Shown here: positions 18,001 through 24,000 of the stretch, piece after piece | Numbering within the stretch: the first letter of the stretch is position 1 | Layout of the letters: each line of letters starts with the position of its first letter | From: Escherichia coli | GTDB lineage: Bacteria > Pseudomonadota > Gammaproteobacteria > Enterobacterales > Enterobacteriaceae | Reading direction: 5' to 3' (one strand) | Length of the DNA stretch: 64,000 nucleotides | NCBI RefSeq assembly: GCF_003790525.1 | Contig: NZ_CP033635.1 | Made by a program: the position numbers

Positions 18001-21000
18001 TTCCGGGATGGTTTGTTCCGTTTCAATCACTCTTAATCAGAGAGTTGTAGCATTGCTTAATGGCATGATGCCGTAAAGTTTTACCGCGGTGATTAATGAT
18101 GTGAAGTCAATCCAAATCAACGGAGATCTCTCATCATGAATCAACCAATACACAATGCTTACTGGTTATCCCGTTTTGACAGCCTTCTCGACAGTGCCCT
18201 GTCGCAGCACCGTGCCGTCTCGTTAATCCGGGTGGATTTACGTTTCCCTGAGTATATGCCTGTCACCATCATGGATCCCGATCCGGATTCAGCGGTGATT
18301 TCTCGTTTTTTCGAATCCCTGAAAGCCAAAATCCAGGCTTACCAGCGGAAAAAACGACGTGCCAACAAGCGTGTGCGTGCAACCACTCTGCGTTATTTCT
18401 GGTGTCGGGAGTTTGGCAAGGAAAAAGGCAGGAAACATTATCACGTGATATTGCTGCTCAACAAAGATACCTGGTGCTCGCCAGGGGATTTCAGCGAACC
18501 ATCTTCGCTGGCGACGATGATCCTGGAGGCATGGTGCAGCGCCCTGCATCTTGAGGCCTGGCAAGGCGATGGCCTGGTCCATTTTTCCAGGTGGACGCCT
18601 TCCCGTAAACCAGCATCGTCTGATGCTCGCCCTTCTTCCGATGACACGCCTTTGTCGGGTGGATGTTCTGATACCAGGAAGGCTTCAGAAAAAAAGCCGG
18701 GTGAAGCCGCTGTTCTCTGGATCAAGCGTGGTGATGTGGAAGCGCTGCAGAAAGCCCGGAACAGAGCCAGTTATCTCGTGAAATATGAGACGAAGCAGCA
18801 TGACGGTTCCGGGCAACGTAATTATGGTTGCAGTCGTGGGCCGGGGCGTCTGCTGGATGGCAGGTGAGCCCTGTAAAACGACATCCGGTGCCTGAGCTTA
18901 TGCTACAGGACGTTGGCTGACGCCCTTAGCTCGTTTTCTGAAAAAGTCGTCCTGAAGTCATGCAACGGTATTTTTCTCTGCTTTCGCTCCTGGAAACACT
19001 CCGTCGGTAAAACCTTACTGTCCTGCTTAATGATGTGAACCGAAGTCAACGGAGATCATTCATTCTGAACCTGCATCCGGTGTTCTTTCCCTTATCTTCC
19101 CGTTCTGCTTCGGTTCTTCACTTATTCCATCAATCTCATTCGTAAACCATAACACGTCAGCTCATTCACGGGCAGGACGCGTTGTGGGCTGCGCATAACG
19201 GAGCATATCTTATGAATGCTATCCCTTATTTCGACTATAGCCTGGCCCCCTTCTGGCCATCTTATCAGAGCAAAGTTATCGGTGTCCTTGAGCGTGCGCT
19301 GCGTGAGCAGTCCGGCTCCAGGATACGGCGGATCCTGCTTCGTCTGCCGTGTGAATATGACAGTACCTTCAGCAGCAGAAAGACCTGGTTTGGTATGGAT
19401 TTTATCGAAACCGTCAGTGCGCTGATGAATGCAACCCCCGGACGCGACCTCTGCTGGCTCCTGACACGTCATCCTGAAAAACCGGAATACCACGTGGTGC
19501 TGTGCGTCAGACAGGAATATTTCGACGGCCCTGAGCTGGACCGGTTGATTCTGGATGCCTGGAGCAACGTACTGGGCTTCGCGGCACCGGGTGAAGCAGC
19601 ACCGTACCAGAAACAGATAACCCGGGATGTGGTGCTGGACAGTTGTTCACCGGACTGCGAAGAGAGACTCAAAGAGCTGATCTGGGCGTTCAGTGATTTC
19701 GCCCGCGATCGTCGTGGTGTGCGCGATCCGGAAGCCCGTTACCTCGCCGGTAATCCCTGGTATCCCGTAGCAGGCCAGCTCTGAAAGCTCAGCTCAGCAG
19801 ATTCTCCCGCATTTGCCCAACATTCATAAATCTCACAGAGGACATTCTGACCATGTTGACCTCAATGACAGGTCACGACAGCGTATTGCTGCGTGCCGAC
19901 GATCCCCTGATCGACATGAACTACATCACCAGCTTCACTGGTATGACCGACAAATGGTTTTACAAGCTGATCAGTGAAGGCCATTTCCCTAAACCCATCA
20001 AACTGGGGCGCAGCAGCCGCTGGTACAAAAGTGAAGTGGAGCAGTGGATGCAGCAACGAATCGAGGCATCACGAGGGGCAGCAGCATGAAACGTGTTGTA
20101 ATGCCGGTACGCTGGCAATGTGCAAAATACCAGCGTTGGTATTGTGGAAATCAGCCCTGTCCCTGGTGCTGGCGACCTGCTGCCCCCGTCTGTCATTCCT
20201 CGTTCTTCGCTGTAACAGGCATCGTACCGGTCTCGGCGTGCTTTCCTGCGTACCGACACCGGTTCAGCAACATTCAAGGGGATCAAATCGTGCAAATAAC
20301 CGAAACCGTACTTTCAGAGCCGGTGGAAATCCGGCGTTTTATTCAGCAGGCGGTGGATCACTGGCCGCGTCTGCTGGCCGTCCACTTCACACTCCATTCG
20401 GCAGAAGGAAACATCAACGGACAACAGATTCATGCATTCTGTACTTCCTTTTACCGACAGGTGCACGAGCGTATTACTGAACGTAATCACACGGCCAGTC
20501 CAGCACCACCGGTGGTATTACGCTGGTTGCGGGAACAACATGGAGGAGCAACAATGCGATGCCTGTTGCTGCTCAGCCAGACGAGCATTTGCCATCCACG
20601 GGTCAGTGCCACGGTTGATGAAGAATGTTCGCAACGGGTGGATTTATTGCAACAGACATGGCGGGTGATAAGTGCTGACGGACAATGCCGGGTGGAAAGG
20701 TGTTTTCAGGCTGCCCGGGGTGATACATCCGGCCAGTATATTGCGTTAAAAACAGTTGCATTGTCTCTGGGGTTACCGGTTGTGACCGGTATTACCCATC
20801 GCCCGGTACAGCGCTGTACATTGATTACAGCTCAGTGAACAGCGCTGTTGTGCAGTCAACGAGGTTTTCTGTCTTTTCGTCGGTCATTCAGCATCATTAA
20901 ACGGGTCTCTGCCTCTTTCTGTTCCTGTGGTGTCACTTCCCCGCACGGCTGACCGTTCAGGTTGTAACGGGCGCCACCTGCTATTAACGCACGGTAATAG

Positions 21001-24000
21001 CGCGGAGACTGCACATAAGACGCCACTGCTGCATGTAATGTACCAGCGCCAAACGCCAGTTCTCGGATGGCGATATCCTGTATCAGGTCGTCAGGTATCC
21101 CCACTTTAAGTGGTTTTGTTTTTTCCCGGTTGAATGACTCAGGCCAGAGTTCCACAAGACGAATAATGCGCTTACGGTTTTTGCTCTGGCGTTTTGTCAT
21201 GTCGCCACGGTGTTTTATCAGCAGGTTTCTGTTTATCGTTCAACTGTGGTATCTGGTCACCGGCCTTCATTTTGTATGCTGTGTCCGTTTTATCCTGCAG
21301 CGGCGTTGCCGGTGATTTACTGAAAATACCCTGCGGTTTACGGTTAATGGTCAGCGTTACCATCAGTATTGTTACCTCGTGCTGTCAATGGAAGTGGTAC
21401 CTCATCCGGTATCTGAAAATGTTTTCCGGTGGATGGCACAGCGAATGTCATGTAAGACATGCTGTTGCCGGTATTGTTCAGTACTGTGAGTTGTGAGCGT
21501 ATTCGTTATCAGACAGAGGGGCAGGGAACAAACGTCAGAGGTTAAGGATATCCGGGAACAAATGGCGTAAACGGACATCTCAGTGCCTGAGAAACAGTAC
21601 AGGTCAGGCCATCATGGCCTGCAAACAGAGCCCTGGCGACCCCGTGGCCGAAAACGAAACAATAACCCGCGCGCAGTGCGAGGAATCCGGATGTGAAGCA
21701 ATCAGCAGGTAATATTAATGGCAGGACCAGCAGGTTCTTTAAACAAACGAACATGCTGTAATTGATATTTTGCTTATTGTATTTTCTTTTTAGTTATTAA
21801 ATTAATTTATTTACGAAAAATTTTCTGCAGATACAGGATGGGAATTCAGGGTGTCATCACGCCTTATGATGACACCCTTCCCCTGGTTGTGGAAAACCGA
21901 AGGATATATCAGGTTCAGCAACAAAATCAGTGAGCTGAAAGATACCAGTCCCCCAGCTTCAGCAGCTTTCACGTAAACATAAACAGGGCTCAATGAATAT
22001 CTGATTGCTCCAGTTACCTTCTTTAATTCGTTCCAGCAAAACATTTCCTGCTTCCAGACCAATTTTCCTGTGAGGAACGGCCATTGTTGTTAATGATGGT
22101 TGGCAAACTTTGCTGACGTCACTGTCACCAAATCCTACTACGGCGAGCTCGTCTGGAACTTTGATCCGTCTTCGTTGACATTCATAGAGAACACCGCAGG
22201 CTAACTCATCTGACACACATACCAGGGCATCCAGTTCCGGCCATGCGAGCAAAAATTCCGGTAGTTGTGATGCTCCGGTGGAAAAAACAGGTGGCAGAGC
22301 AGCGTTAATAACACGGTTGGGAGACATATGATGGCGTAACATAGCTTTATACCATCCCTGTAAATGCTGCTGAAAGATCCACTGTTCCTGGTTAGCGCAT
22401 AGCAAACCGATATTCTGATAACCACGTTGTACCAGCATATCCGTCAGCTCGAACATTGCTGCAACATTATCAATACCAATGTTGATATCTATCGGATCAG
22501 TACGAATGGCACCGATTTCTATAACAGGAATCGAGGCATTTTTGAGCAAGTGACGCACGGTACTATTATGATCAACACTAAGCAAAATTGCTGCAGCGAT
22601 ATTAGAAGCCAGCAGGGTTTCCAGCAGTTTTTCTTCTTGTTCCAGACGATGGCGTGACTCAGCCAGGATTATTTGATACCCCGCTGGTTGTAGCACATGT
22701 TGCAGCCCGGCAAACATTTCCGTGCATCCCGCTTCAGCCAGGTTTGGCACGACCATTGCGATCGTGTGTGAAGATGCCGATGCCAGTGCGCTTGCAGTGA
22801 GGTTGGGCATATACCCTAATTCATTAACTGCGGCTTCAATCTTCTCCCTCAATTTATCTGAAACTTGTTCGGGAGTGCGTAACGCTCTGGATACAGTCAT
22901 TGTGCCAACTCCCGCGAGTTGCGCGACATCAGCAATAGTGACTTTACCTGTACTACGACGTTTTCGGGTTATTGCCATACAAAATCCTGCTCAGCGACTA
23001 CATATGGAGATCTTTTATTACTTATCATCAACGGCTTCCTGCACTGCCAGTAGCAGAGTATACCTCTTAATATCTGCCATAAGTCTGGATTTAATCAGTG
23101 AAATCTATTTTGATAGCGCTATCACAAATTCGAACAATACCTCCTGATAGCGCTATCTTTGTGATATTGATCGCAGATATACCGTCGTTACTTGAATACA
23201 TTCTGGTCATATAAATAAGAAATTAGGGGGTGGGAGTGCTTAATATCTGGCTTTCTGATTCAACAATCGCATTACGAAAGAATGCCGCAACCTGGCAGCA
23301 GGCATTAGATATCTGTGCCAGACCGTTACTGGATGCAGAGATAATTACGACGGATTATCTCAGTGCGATAAAGACACAACATGAAAAACTGGGGCCTTAT
23401 TATGTCCTGGCACCCGGGCTGGCCATGCCGCATGCCCGACCAGAAGAAGGGGCAAAAGGATTAGGTTTATCATTATTAAAACTTGAAGAAGGTGTCAGTT
23501 TTCATACAGAGGAATTTGATCCTGTAGATGTTATCATTTTACTTGCCGCACCAGACAAACACAGTCATATCGAAATGATATCTGCACTGGCTGAGTTATT
23601 CTCCAGCGAAAAAGATTTACATGAATTGCATCAGGCTCGCAATGTGGAGGAAATAAAAAAGATAATTTCACGGTTCTGATTACATTATAAATTCAGTCTT
23701 TTCACAACATTGCGCCGTTGCGTGATGGGACTTCTTCAACTTAAAATGGTGAATATAATGAAAATTATGGCTATTTGTGGCTCAGGGCTTGGTAGTAGTT
23801 TTATGGTCGAAATGAATATTAAAAAAGTTCTGAAAAAAATGGATATAGAGGCGGAAGTGGAACATTCCGATCTCTCATCAGCAACGCCAGGGGCTGCCGA
23901 TTTATTTGTGATGGCCAAAGATATTGCTGCCAGTGCCAGCGTACCGGAAAGTCAGTTGGTGGTTATCAACAACATCATTGATATTAATGAACTCGAAACG

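What the first reader, a model, noticed from the sequence alone, without database searches (positions are those of the whole stretch)
20856..21400. Island-encoded small FinO/ProQ-domain RNA chaperone
The 114-aa protein has the ProQ N-terminal pattern (KPLKVGIPDDL...LAFGAGTL...PCGEV) but lacks the ProQ C-terminal domain, resembling the small FinO-domain proteins found on plasmids and islands. These usually partner with a specific antisense or small RNA, which could lie in the ORF-poor 21200-21950 region. An overlapping 63-aa Lys/Pro-rich ORF (21172-21363) in another frame could be a frameshifted N-terminal extension.
Basis: partly seen in the sequence, partly recalled or inferred. Interest (0 to 1): 0.5.

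Follow-up and report, generated by a model that had tools for sequence, protein, structure and literature searches.

The report
Frameshifted relic of FinO-like gene
The 114-codon reading frame really does encode a FinO/ProQ-type RNA-binding domain, but it is the surviving back half of a 168-codon island or phage-satellite gene split by a 2-base deletion, and is most likely a decaying relic rather than a working small RNA chaperone.

Summary
ORF 20856-21200 (-) has a clear FinO/ProQ domain (Pfam PF04352, E 3e-21; all top fold matches are FinO, RocC and NMB1681).

The overlapping 63-aa ORF (21172-21363) is the N-terminus of the same gene. Intact relatives are 164-185 aa, and the window has lost one AT of CATATG exactly at ...PWRH|MTKRQ...

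This deletion allele occurs in 373 of 5426 complete E. coli genomes. At least 347 genomes also carry an extra A in the A-run inside the domain, which destroys the 114-aa ORF; the exact 80-base stretch of the window's version was found in only one (APEC IMT5155). The window copy also has eight lineage-specific amino-acid changes at otherwise conserved positions, including His at the position of ProQ Arg58.

Intact relatives sit in phage-satellite operons (primase-SSB-FinO-like-PerC) headed by antisense RNAs (C4/isrK, or a SymR-like candidate).

No RNA partner was detectable in 21200-21950 by Rfam, folding or terminator scans. RefSeq already annotates the gene as ProQ/FINO, and as "frameshifted" in sister genomes.

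Verdict: an eroding relic of an uncharacterised FinO subfamily, of low interest in itself.

The parts
20856..21200 (-). 114-aa ORF covering the FinO/ProQ domain. It corresponds to codons 56-168 of the ancestral ~168-aa gene and starts at the family's conserved internal Met.
   Evidence: ORF listing; Pfam PF04352 E 3.4e-21; tblastn of intact P0018 residues 56-167 gives 89% identity at 21200-20865; PDB and fold matches.
21172..21363 (-). 63-aa ORF. It is the N-terminal 55 codons of the ancestral gene (MVTLTINRKPQG...KTPWRH) followed by 8 out-of-frame codons and a stop.
   Evidence: P0018 residues 1-55 align at 96% identity to 21363-21199; full-length homologues P0014, P0018 and P0020 carry the same N-terminus fused to the domain. 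RefSeq calls it hypothetical protein WP_001366542.1 in APEC IMT5155.
21198..21202 (-). Frameshift site. The window reads CGAC-ATG-ACA where intact alleles read CGACATATGACA, so one AT of an (AT)2 repeat is lost.
   Evidence: Direct comparison with intact L011 and alignment A1. This allele occurs in 373 of 5426 complete genomes; the matching intact allele occurs in 2.
21119..21124 (-). A6 run (GGGAAAAAAC) created by the Pro-to-Thr codon change. It is A7 in most sister copies, a second frameshift that truncates the FinO-domain ORF after 31 codons.
   Evidence: Translations of L001 and L002. The A7 80-mer is exact in 347 genomes; the window's A6 80-mer is exact in 1.
21375..21378 (-). GAGG Shine-Dalgarno 11 nt upstream of the ATG at 21363. 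This is the ancestral translation start. No comparable site precedes the internal ATG at 21200.
   Evidence: Read directly from the sequence. The stretch is conserved in all island copies.
21364..21510 (-). Gene-proximal leader/promoter region, conserved with the gene in every island copy examined.
   Evidence: Alignments A4 and A8, 92% mean identity. Folding z-score is -2.7 to -3.6 on the minus strand only. Variation is too low to test covariation.
21620..21753 (.). Distal conserved block; the shared island module ends at 21753. It contains a weak terminator-like hairpin on the minus strand (21682-21666). Its function is unknown.
   Evidence: Homology limit seen in 1133 genomes; alignments; terminator scan. 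Folding is not better than shuffles (z -0.3 and -1.2). The block is non-homologous in L017 and L018, which carry an intact gene.
20808..20848 (.). 17-nt inverted repeat made of two ACAGCGCTGT palindromes. It straddles the stop of the convergent UCP030791/YagK-YfjJ-like gene (20838) and lies 8 nt past the FinO-like stop. It is a likely shared 3' hairpin or a protein operator.
   Evidence: the repeat finder I1; folding z -2.7 (+) and -3.8 (-); conserved in all island copies.
20290..20838 (+). Convergent neighbour, a UCP030791 / YagK-YfjJ-type protein. It is always paired tail-to-tail with the FinO-like gene in the island clade.
   Evidence: RefSeq annotation of homologous loci; Pfam PF27752 in L011, L012, L017 and L018.
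19853..20089 (+). AlpA-type excisionase/regulator of the island core module.
   Evidence: NCBIfam excise-domain hit; PHROG excisionase families; PF05930 in homologous loci.

Best explanation
The locus is a decaying copy of a ~168-aa FinO-family RNA-chaperone gene that belongs to E. coli CP4-type islands and, in intact form, to enterobacterial phage satellites.

The ancestral protein has three parts. A roughly 50-residue basic N-terminal tail is predicted to be disordered and carries conserved motifs (LTINRK, QDKT, QKP..TPWRH). A basic helix (MTKRQRKNRKR) follows, and then a canonical FinO domain.

In this lineage, slippage removed one AT from CATATG at the tail/domain junction. Ribosomes that start at the real start codon (21363, good GAGG site) now make a 63-aa peptide and stop at 21172. 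The FinO domain survives only as a 114-aa ORF that begins at the internal Met, with no Shine-Dalgarno of its own.

Most likely it is not made in useful amounts and is no longer under selection. Any product made by re-initiation would resemble FinO45-186: able to bind RNA hairpins but lacking the N-terminal part needed for RNA duplexing. It would be further weakened by His at the ProQ-Arg58 position.

Shown here: the domain identity, the frameshift, its population distribution, and the secondary decay. Inferred: loss of function, and the properties of any residual product.
For: - Intact homologues of 164-185 aa join both ORFs. The lesion is a 2-nt deletion relative to intact L011. P0018 aligns in two frames, at 96% and 89% identity.
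- PGAP marks the same gene 'frameshifted' in TUM9803 and Santai.
- The deletion allele is in 373 of 5426 complete genomes and 472 places. Its intact counterpart is in 2.
- Decay continues within that lineage. L001 and L002 are 99.4-99.8% identical to the window and carry an extra A that truncates the domain ORF. That A7 form is exact in 347 genomes, against 1 for the window's A6 form.
- A second island lineage has an independent 5-nt duplication frameshift in 333 genomes and its own substitutions at conserved residues, such as G33E at the ProQ Gly37 position.
- The window branch has 8 non-synonymous against 5 synonymous changes: R5S, N12I, L21S, P27T, R55H, M72I, D79N and K81N. Five hit invariant and two nearly invariant columns of alignment A3; Met72 is not conserved. 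dN/dS is 0.32 against the closest intact copy, versus 0.09-0.13 between intact copies.
- ProQ R58A abolishes RNA binding (PMC7192607).
- FinO45-186 binds RNA but has no duplexing or strand-exchange activity (PMC3105414).
- The review PMC9977716 notes that chromosomally integrated FinO homologues tend to erode.
Against: - The 114-aa ORF in this particular copy is still open.
- It keeps the two residues invariant across 68 diverse family members, the equivalents of ProQ Tyr70 and Arg80.
- Both widespread frameshift alleles leave the same 114-aa ORF. In the 5-nt-duplication allele the upstream stop overlaps the ATG (ATGA), an arrangement that favours translational coupling.
- Natural stand-alone FinO domains such as NMB1681 are functional.
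- The synonymous/non-synonymous counts on the window branch are small, so relaxed selection is suggested rather than proven.
- No expression data were available.
Confidence: 0.72

Rival explanations
1. This is a functional stand-alone minimal FinO-domain RNA binder. The 114-aa protein would be translated from the internal AUG by re-initiation after the 63-aa ORF. It would stabilise or sequester terminator-hairpin RNAs of the island, the host or incoming elements.
For: The ORF is open with a full-length Pfam match, and the Tyr70/Arg80 equivalents are retained. FinO45-186 binds RNA about 20-fold more tightly than full-length FinO (PMC3105414). Two independent, widespread split alleles keep the same 114-aa ORF. 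RefSeq annotates it as an ordinary CDS in IMT5155.
Against: No Shine-Dalgarno precedes the internal AUG, and the upstream ORF stops 29 nt past it. At least 347 of about 400 genomes with this allele family have the domain ORF broken by the A7 insertion. The copy has His at the ProQ Arg58 position and Asn at Asp82. No candidate RNA ligand was found nearby.
Confidence: 0.2
2. A near-full-length protein is still made by recoding. A +1 ribosomal slip on the A-AAA-C run just after the deletion (GAC AAA ACG read as ACA AAA CGC), or transcriptional slippage, would fuse the N-terminal tail to the FinO domain. The frameshift would then act as a low-level expression switch.
For: The FinO frame is +1 relative to the N-terminal frame, and the 29-nt overlap contains AAAA and AAAAA runs on which Lys-tRNA could re-pair (sequence). 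The frameshift alleles are old enough to be spread over hundreds of genomes.
Against: There is no known stimulatory element here: no internal SD at the right spacing, and no rare or stop codon at the slip site as in prfB. The two split alleles need different shifts. The second A7 frameshift in most copies would defeat the mechanism. The database variant P0007 restored the frame by a DNA change, not by recoding.
Confidence: 0.04
3. The frameshift is a sequencing or assembly error, and the real gene is intact.
For: The lesion lies in a short dinucleotide repeat and next to homopolymer runs, where long-read assemblies make errors.
Against: The identical 50-mer across the junction is present in 372 independent complete genomes from many laboratories and platforms. 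The identical 114-aa protein is on 19 contigs in public collections.
Confidence: 0.01

Closest known systems
FinO of F-like plasmids (PDB 1dvo; NCBIfam NF010317)
   Same: Best fold match (Foldseek E 2e-7, rmsd 1.9 A over 102 columns), with 30-37% identity over the domain. The intact relatives share FinO's overall layout: a basic, disordered N-terminal tail with a Trp just before the core domain, encoded on a mobile element. The window's 114-aa ORF corresponds to the FinO45-186 core, which binds RNA but cannot promote duplexing.
   Different: The NCBIfam score of 50.5 bits is far below the 136-bit cut-off. The gene is not on a plasmid and not at the end of a tra operon, and no FinP/traJ pair is present. 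About 25 residues of FinO's long helix are missing. N-terminal similarity to FinO is not statistically significant (BLASTP E 0.32). The window copy is split by a frameshift.
ProQ N-terminal domain (E. coli/Salmonella; PDB 5nb9; NF003434)
   Same: Best sequence match among solved structures (E 3.7e-14). The motifs PLKxGI, LRxA, RY and RxDLxGxPCGE are shared.
   Different: There is no linker and no C-terminal Tudor-like domain. The score of 50.8 bits is below the 127-bit equivalog cut-off. The gene is island-borne and not the housekeeping proQ. The ProQ Lys54 position is Ala in the whole subfamily, and the Arg58 position is His in this copy.
Minimal stand-alone FinO-domain proteins (N. meningitidis NMB1681/minimal ProQ, PDB 3mw6; Legionella Lpp1663)
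   Same: The surviving ORF has a similar size (114 aa against about 120-140 aa) and the same fold.
   Different: Those proteins are natively short and functional global RNA binders. Here the shortness is secondary, caused by a 2-nt deletion in a 168-aa gene, and sister copies are further broken.
Plasmid/phage FinO-domain copy-number regulators (FopA of pCol1B9, PcnR of IncI2 plasmids) and the ProQ/FinO-like gene noted in episomal cf-PICI-like satellites of Vibrio
   Same: These are mobile-element FinO-domain proteins that work with a cis-antisense RNA on a replication gene leader (PMC9977716). A ProQ/FinO-like regulator has been noted in capsid-forming satellite-plasmids (PMC13230959). The intact relatives of the window gene sit in satellite replication operons, primase-SSB-FinO-like-PerC.
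   Different: No sequence-level orthology was tested or shown. No RNA partner has been demonstrated for the island/satellite subfamily. The window copy lies outside any replication operon, tail-to-tail with a YagK/YfjJ-type gene.

Membership tests
ProQ/FinO domain superfamily (Pfam PF04352) | Significant full-length match to the domain profile | tested here: met
   i-Evalue 3.4e-21, residues 9-112 against model positions 5-107 of 109.
ProQ/FinO domain superfamily (Pfam PF04352) | FinO fold (helical core with a beta-hairpin) | tested here: met
   AF2 model of the closest intact relative P0018 has pLDDT >93 over residues 53-168. Its 26 best PDB matches are all FinO, RocC, NMB1681 or Lpp1663. The model is of the relative, which is 89% identical over the domain, not of the window protein itself.
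ProQ/FinO domain superfamily (Pfam PF04352) | Universally conserved Tyr and Arg (ProQ Tyr70 and Arg80) | tested here: met
   These are the only two invariant columns among 68 diverse relatives (Y123 and R133 of P0018). Both are present in the window ORF (...PRYYRAL...GARYNL...).
ProQ/FinO domain superfamily (Pfam PF04352) | Conserved concave-face Arg needed for RNA binding (ProQ Arg58) | tested here: not met
   The window has His (GTLHAAV). Nine of ten aligned full-length family members have Arg, and the change is window-branch specific (R55H). ProQ R58A loses RNA binding (PMC7192607).
ProQ/FinO domain superfamily (Pfam PF04352) | Binds terminator-type RNA hairpins with a 3' tail | not testable with these tools
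   This needs gel-shift or CLIP experiments.
ProQ proper (NCBIfam NF003434 equivalog) | Score above the curated cut-off, plus linker and C-terminal domain | tested here: not met
   50.8 bits against a cut-off of 127. The protein ends just after the FinO domain.
FinO of F-like plasmids (NCBIfam NF010317) | Score above the curated cut-off, a tra-operon context and a FinP/traJ partner | tested here: not met
   50.5 bits against a cut-off of 136. The location is chromosomal; the 472 places that carry this allele are all chromosomal. No Rfam family, which would include FinP, was hit in the window.
Natively small stand-alone FinO-domain proteins (NMB1681 type) | The short length is the native gene structure | tested here: not met
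   Intact orthologues are 164-185 aa. The short ORF results from a 2-nt deletion.
Pseudogene / eroding gene | Frame disruption relative to intact orthologues | tested here: met
   PGAP labels it 'frameshifted'.
Pseudogene / eroding gene | Further disabling mutations accumulate in the same lineage | tested here: met
   The A7 insertion truncates the domain ORF in L001 and L002. It is exact in 347 genomes, against 1 for the window form.
Pseudogene / eroding gene | Relaxed purifying selection (dN/dS approaching 1) | tested here: inconclusive
   dN/dS is 0.32 against 0.09-0.13 for intact pairs. The branch has 8 non-synonymous against 5 synonymous changes. The trend is in the expected direction but the counts are small.
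Island/satellite FinO-like subfamily (this work: 164-185 aa, LTINRK...TPWRHMTKRQRKNR + FinO domain) | Conserved N-terminal tail fused in frame to the domain | tested here: not met
   The tail is present (96% identical to P0018 residues 1-55) but out of frame.

The most novel reading that the evidence does not exclude
The window copy is a relic, but its intact relatives may define an unstudied class: a FinO-type RNA chaperone that is a fixed part of the replication operon of enterobacterial phage satellites (PICI / cf-PICI / P4-like). The operon order is primase or helicase, then SSB, FinO-like and PerC.

The protein would work with the antisense RNA at the head of that operon. That RNA is C4/CI with isrK in some elements. 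In others it is a two-hairpin, FinP-like, SymR-like antisense RNA over the first gene's ribosome-binding site. Together they would set satellite immunity, induction or copy number.

The repeatedly split island alleles could then be leftovers, or, less likely, domesticated 'core-only' RNA binders that interfere with incoming satellites.
Probability: 0.3. Interest if true: 0.55.

Novelty: new member of a known kind. Interest (0 to 1): 0.22.

Why it matters
For this window it matters little. The feature is an already-annotated FinO-family gene remnant, and genome annotators should treat the 114-aa "ProQ/FINO family protein" and the 63-aa "hypothetical protein" as two pieces of one broken gene.

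The wider value lies in the family it points to. FinO-domain proteins are known from plasmids (FinO, FopA, PcnR) and as global regulators (ProQ, RocC). A conserved, uncharacterised subfamily built into phage-satellite replication operons next to antisense RNAs would extend RNA-chaperone-assisted antisense control to satellites. It would also give an experimentally easy entry point, because the candidate RNA partners are already visible. Finally, the locus is a clean population-scale example of stepwise erosion of a mobile-element regulator after it lands in a chromosomal island.

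Tried and rejected
- **Upstream region as a remnant of satellite genes.** I asked whether 21364-21753 is a remnant of the SSB or primase genes that precede the gene in satellites. tblastx and blastn against L005, L006, L009, L010 and L021 found only the FinO-like gene itself shared.
- **Known RNA families.** There was no hit in the whole window at gathering thresholds, and none at E<=1 in 14000-23000.
- **Structured RNA in 21200-21950.** A sliding-window fold with dinucleotide shuffles gave nothing beyond |z| 2 in 21200-21750, apart from the gene-proximal leader on the minus strand (window 21390-21509) and one plus-strand window at z -2.3 (21570-21689). 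The strong signals lie outside, at the convergent 3' junction and at the LacI terminator. Island copies are too similar to test covariation.
- **Promoter and terminator scan.** It found no sigma-70-like promoter. The plus-strand terminator-like site at 21101-21113 is simply the coding sequence of the KPLKVG motif and is lost in L003.
- **Species-wide synteny.** The genome-contig scan returned only one locus (Pantoea), because the peptide patterns were too specific. I used the look-up of encoding contigs instead.
- **Homology of the N-terminal tail to FinO's N-terminus.** A visual resemblance (TLTINRKPQG against VLTLKRKTEG; TPW against PKW) is not significant by BLASTP (E 0.32 and 6.1). I kept it only as an analogy of layout.
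- **Satellite antisense-RNA candidate in the window.** The SymR-like sequence has no match in the window with up to 3 mismatches.
- **Second copy of the gene.** None was found in the window.
- **Plasmid or phage origin.** The only close match in the plasmid set is a 4.8-Mb E. coli record at 90% identity; otherwise the nearest plasmid genes are FinO at 30-37% identity. The only phage hit is Sodalis phiSG1 gp26 at 42%.

Full report
**1. What is in the sequence**

A 63-aa Lys/Pro/Thr-rich ORF runs from 21363 to 21172 and overlaps it by 29 nt in another frame.

The 114-aa product matches Pfam ProQ/FINO (PF04352) over essentially the whole model (i-Evalue 3.4e-21). NCBIfam finds both ProQ (50.8 bits) and FinO (50.5 bits). 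These are far below their curated cut-offs of 127 and 136 bits, so it is neither protein proper.

A profile of the family hits the solved FinO-domain proteins by sequence: ProQ-NTD 5nb9, FinO 1dvo, Lpp1663 6s10, RocC 7rgs/t/u and NMB1681 3mw6. An AlphaFold model of the closest intact relative is confident over the domain. Its 26 top PDB fold matches are all FinO-domain structures, with FinO itself first.

**2. The small size is secondary: the gene is split by a frameshift**

A search of 5.8 billion proteins shows that the family is normally 164-185 aa. The full-length proteins begin MVTLTINRKPQGIF...KQKPADKTPWRH and continue MTKRQRKNRKRINRLVELWPELF.... This is the 63-aa ORF fused to the 114-aa ORF.

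The closest intact protein, P0018, aligns to the window in two frames. Residues 1-55 align at 96% identity to 21363-21199, and residues 56-167 at 89% to 21200-20865. At the DNA level, intact L011 reads CCGTGGCGACATATGACAAAACGCC and the window reads CCGTGGCGACATGACAAAACGCC. One AT of an (AT)2 repeat is lost at 21198-21202.

The true start at 21363 has a GAGG Shine-Dalgarno 11 nt upstream. The internal ATG at 21200 has none.

RefSeq already reflects this. PGAP calls the locus "ProQ/FINO family protein, frameshifted" in strains TUM9803 and Santai. In APEC IMT5155 it annotates a 63-aa hypothetical protein plus a 114-aa ProQ/FINO family protein, exactly as in the window.

**3. Population picture: stepwise erosion**

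A 50-mer that can only match across the deleted junction is exact in 372 of 5426 complete E. coli genomes. Counting one further near-exact match, the allele is in 373 genomes and 472 places, with up to five copies per genome. The corresponding intact junction occurs in 2 genomes.

The closest relatives of the window, L001 and L002 (99.4-99.8% identical), carry a second lesion. The run GGGAAAAAAC (A6, 21124-21119) is A7, which truncates the FinO-domain ORF after 31 codons. The A6 run itself was created by a Pro-to-Thr codon change. The A7 80-mer is exact in 347 genomes, and the window's A6 80-mer is exact in a single one, APEC IMT5155. The window thus holds a rare, one-step-less-decayed version of an allele in which the domain ORF is usually dead.

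A second island lineage (L003, L004) has an independent frameshift, a 5-nt CTGCT duplication. It gives a 57-aa ORF whose stop overlaps the ATG of the same 114-aa ORF (ATGA). It is present in 333 genomes, and its un-duplicated counterpart is essentially absent.

On the window branch there are eight amino-acid changes against five synonymous ones: R5S, N12I, L21S, P27T, R55H, M72I, D79N and K81N. Five of them hit invariant columns of the ten-sequence family alignment (A3), and two more hit nearly invariant ones (Pro27, Arg55). Met72 is not a conserved column. R55H and D79N fall on the equivalents of ProQ Arg58 and Asp82. R58A abolishes ProQ-RNA interaction, and D82Y came out of the loss-of-binding screen (PMC7192607).

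dN/dS over the domain is 0.32 against the nearest intact copy, compared with 0.09-0.13 between intact copies. This points in the expected direction but rests on small counts.

The two residues invariant in 68 diverse relatives, the ProQ Tyr70 and Arg80 equivalents, are still present.

**4. Where the gene family lives**

In E. coli the gene is part of a conserved island core: a YagK/YfjJ-type gene, a 186-aa ORF, alpA and UCP030791. The FinO-like gene is convergent to UCP030791. The island in the window is of the CP4 type. By homology to L001 it carries the GTPase, DUF932, antirestriction, JAB, YeeU/CbtA and related genes.

Homology among islands runs from 20780 to 21753. It then stops at an AT-rich junction in front of a LacI/PTS/transketolase cargo block.

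More distant intact relatives (65-75% identity, and 43% in Pantoea) are in a different and very consistent context. These are integrase- and AlpA-bearing phage satellites. The gene sits in one long operon: small ORFs, DUF4222, a primase or helicase (DUF927, D5_N or AAA_25), SSB, the FinO-like gene and PerC. In one element capsid, protease, portal and HNH genes follow, which is cf-PICI-like. Only the FinO-like gene is shared between these satellites and the window.

The nearest plasmid genes are FinO at 30-37% identity, and phages contribute only Sodalis phiSG1 gp26. In the papers searched, island-borne ProQ/FINO genes appeared only as annotations (PMC6174562). A ProQ/FinO-like regulator in episomal cf-PICI-like satellites was noted in passing (PMC13230959), and a review states that integrated FinO homologues tend to erode (PMC9977716).

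**5. The proposed partner RNA**

The 595 nt between the gene and the LacI gene were examined on both strands.

- Rfam finds nothing, even at E<=1.
- The consensus scan finds no promoter. It finds only a weak 5-bp terminator-like hairpin at 21682-21666 (-), plus the terminator-like site directly after the LacI gene at 21958-21933.
- Folding energies are indistinguishable from shuffles across 21200-21750, with two exceptions. The gene-proximal leader on the minus strand gives z -2.7 to -3.6. One plus-strand window (21570-21689) gives z -2.3.
- The middle part is deleted in L004. The distal block is replaced by unrelated sequence in L017 and L018, which have an intact gene.

There is therefore no evidence for a dedicated RNA gene here. 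The leader is most simply the gene's own 5' region.

The strongest local structure lies on the other side. A 17-nt inverted repeat at 20808-20848, made of two ACAGCGCTGT palindromes, straddles the two convergent stop codons and is conserved in all island copies. It could be a shared 3' hairpin, the kind of structure FinO domains recognise, or a protein operator. This is a lead, not a finding.

In the satellites, by contrast, antisense RNAs are visible at the head of the operon that contains the FinO-like gene. L010 has isrK plus C4, and L023 has C4 plus its a1/b1 targets. In L021 and L009 there is a two-hairpin candidate antisense to the first gene's ribosome-binding site. It ends in a GC-rich hairpin followed by UUUCGUCGUUU, shows two compensatory pairs, and gives a weak SymR hit. 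This FinP-like arrangement makes an RNA partner plausible for the intact family. It rests on four elements and two sequences, and nothing of the kind is present in the window.

**6. Mechanism**

Shown:
- It is a FinO-domain gene.
- It is split by a 2-nt deletion.
- Most sister copies are further inactivated.

Inferred:
- In this copy, translation from the real start yields a 63-aa basic peptide.
- The FinO domain could be made only by inefficient re-initiation 29 nt upstream of that ORF's stop.
- If made, it would resemble FinO45-186, which binds hairpins tightly but has no duplexing or strand-exchange activity because the flexible N-terminal region is essential for that (PMC3105414). It would be further weakened by the Arg-to-His change.

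The model of the intact relative agrees with this layout. Residues 1-52 are disordered, and a short helical turn at residues 53-55, beginning at the conserved Trp53, is followed by the basic helix (58-73) leading into the core.

I put 0.72 on "non-functional relic", 0.2 on "residual functional minimal domain", 0.04 on recoding and 0.01 on artefact.

**7. Comparison and novelty**

The feature works like, and belongs to, the ProQ/FinO domain superfamily. It is not ProQ, not FinO, and not a natively minimal FinO protein.

The subfamily is uncharacterised experimentally but is already named in RefSeq, and the frameshift is already flagged there. For the window itself this is an ordinary, eroding mobile-element gene, hence the low interest score.

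The more interesting by-product is the link between intact family members, satellite replication operons and antisense RNAs. It is testable but lies outside this window.

Noticed in passing
window 20808-20848: Two copies of the 10-bp palindrome ACAGCGCTGT form a 17-nt inverted repeat exactly between the convergent stops of the UCP030791-like and FinO-like genes. Folding z is -2.7 to -3.8, and the repeat is conserved in all island copies. A half-site-like ACAGC...GCTGT pair also occurs in the gene's leader (about 21440-21475). It may be a bidirectional 3' hairpin or an operator.
   Followed up: partly
window 21848-21878 and 21933-21958: A perfect 12-bp inverted repeat (AGGGTGTCATCA / TGATGACACCCT, 7-nt loop) lies downstream of the LacI-family gene, next to that gene's terminator-like hairpin. 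The whole 21780-21959 stretch folds far better than shuffles (z about -3 to -4).
   Followed up: no
window 1-64000: ARAGORN and Rfam find no tRNA gene anywhere in the 64-kb window. The CP4-type island nevertheless begins right after setC, the selC neighbourhood, and its near end is the CbtA/YeeU side rather than an integrase.
   Followed up: partly
window 20856-20880 (3' end of the FinO-like gene): The window, L003 and L004 alleles carry a 20-nt insertion (ACCTCGTTGACTGCACAACA) relative to intact L011 and L017. It changes the C-terminus from ...RKARKR* to ...RKxRKPR* and moves the stop 17 nt away from the convergent gene's stop.
   Followed up: partly
protein P0007 (public collection, 168 aa): This variant of the window allele carries the 2-nt deletion, and a second compensating indel restores the frame 7 codons later (...PWRHDKTPEQNRKRIIRL...). 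The locus evidently keeps mutating by small indels.
   Followed up: no
L021 6118-6212 (-) and L009 791-885 (-): A candidate ~80-nt cis-antisense RNA lies over the ribosome-binding site of the first gene of the satellite operon. It has two stem-loops, a GC-rich terminator hairpin followed by UUUCGUCGUUU, two compensatory base-pair changes between E. coli and Citrobacter, and a weak Rfam SymR hit (34 bits).
   Followed up: partly
L010 268-466 and L023 5674-5878: P1/P4-type immunity RNAs (C4 antisense RNA, its a1/b1 targets, and isrK) sit at the head of satellites that encode an intact FinO-like protein. In L010 they lie inside a called 'Phage_ASH' ORF.
   Followed up: partly
L023 16270-16334: A perfect match to the Salmonella Hfq-binding sRNA STnc290 (100.9 bits), plus an isrH fragment, lies just outside the Salmonella satellite that carries P0095.
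   Followed up: no
window 18136-18867 (+) and 19182-19784 (+): Upstream of alpA lie an 'inovirus Gp2 family'/replication-initiator-like ORF (PHROG replication-initiation hits, E 8e-8) and a 200-aa ORF with no family match. These may be remnants of the island's former replication module.
   Followed up: no
window 21959-27300 approx.: The cargo next to the island core comprises a LacI-family regulator, PTS IIA/IIB/IIC (ascorbate type) and a split transketolase, assigned by homology to L001. In other strains the same junction at 21753 is followed by IS1, H-NS or other cargo, so 21753 is a recombination boundary.
   Followed up: partly
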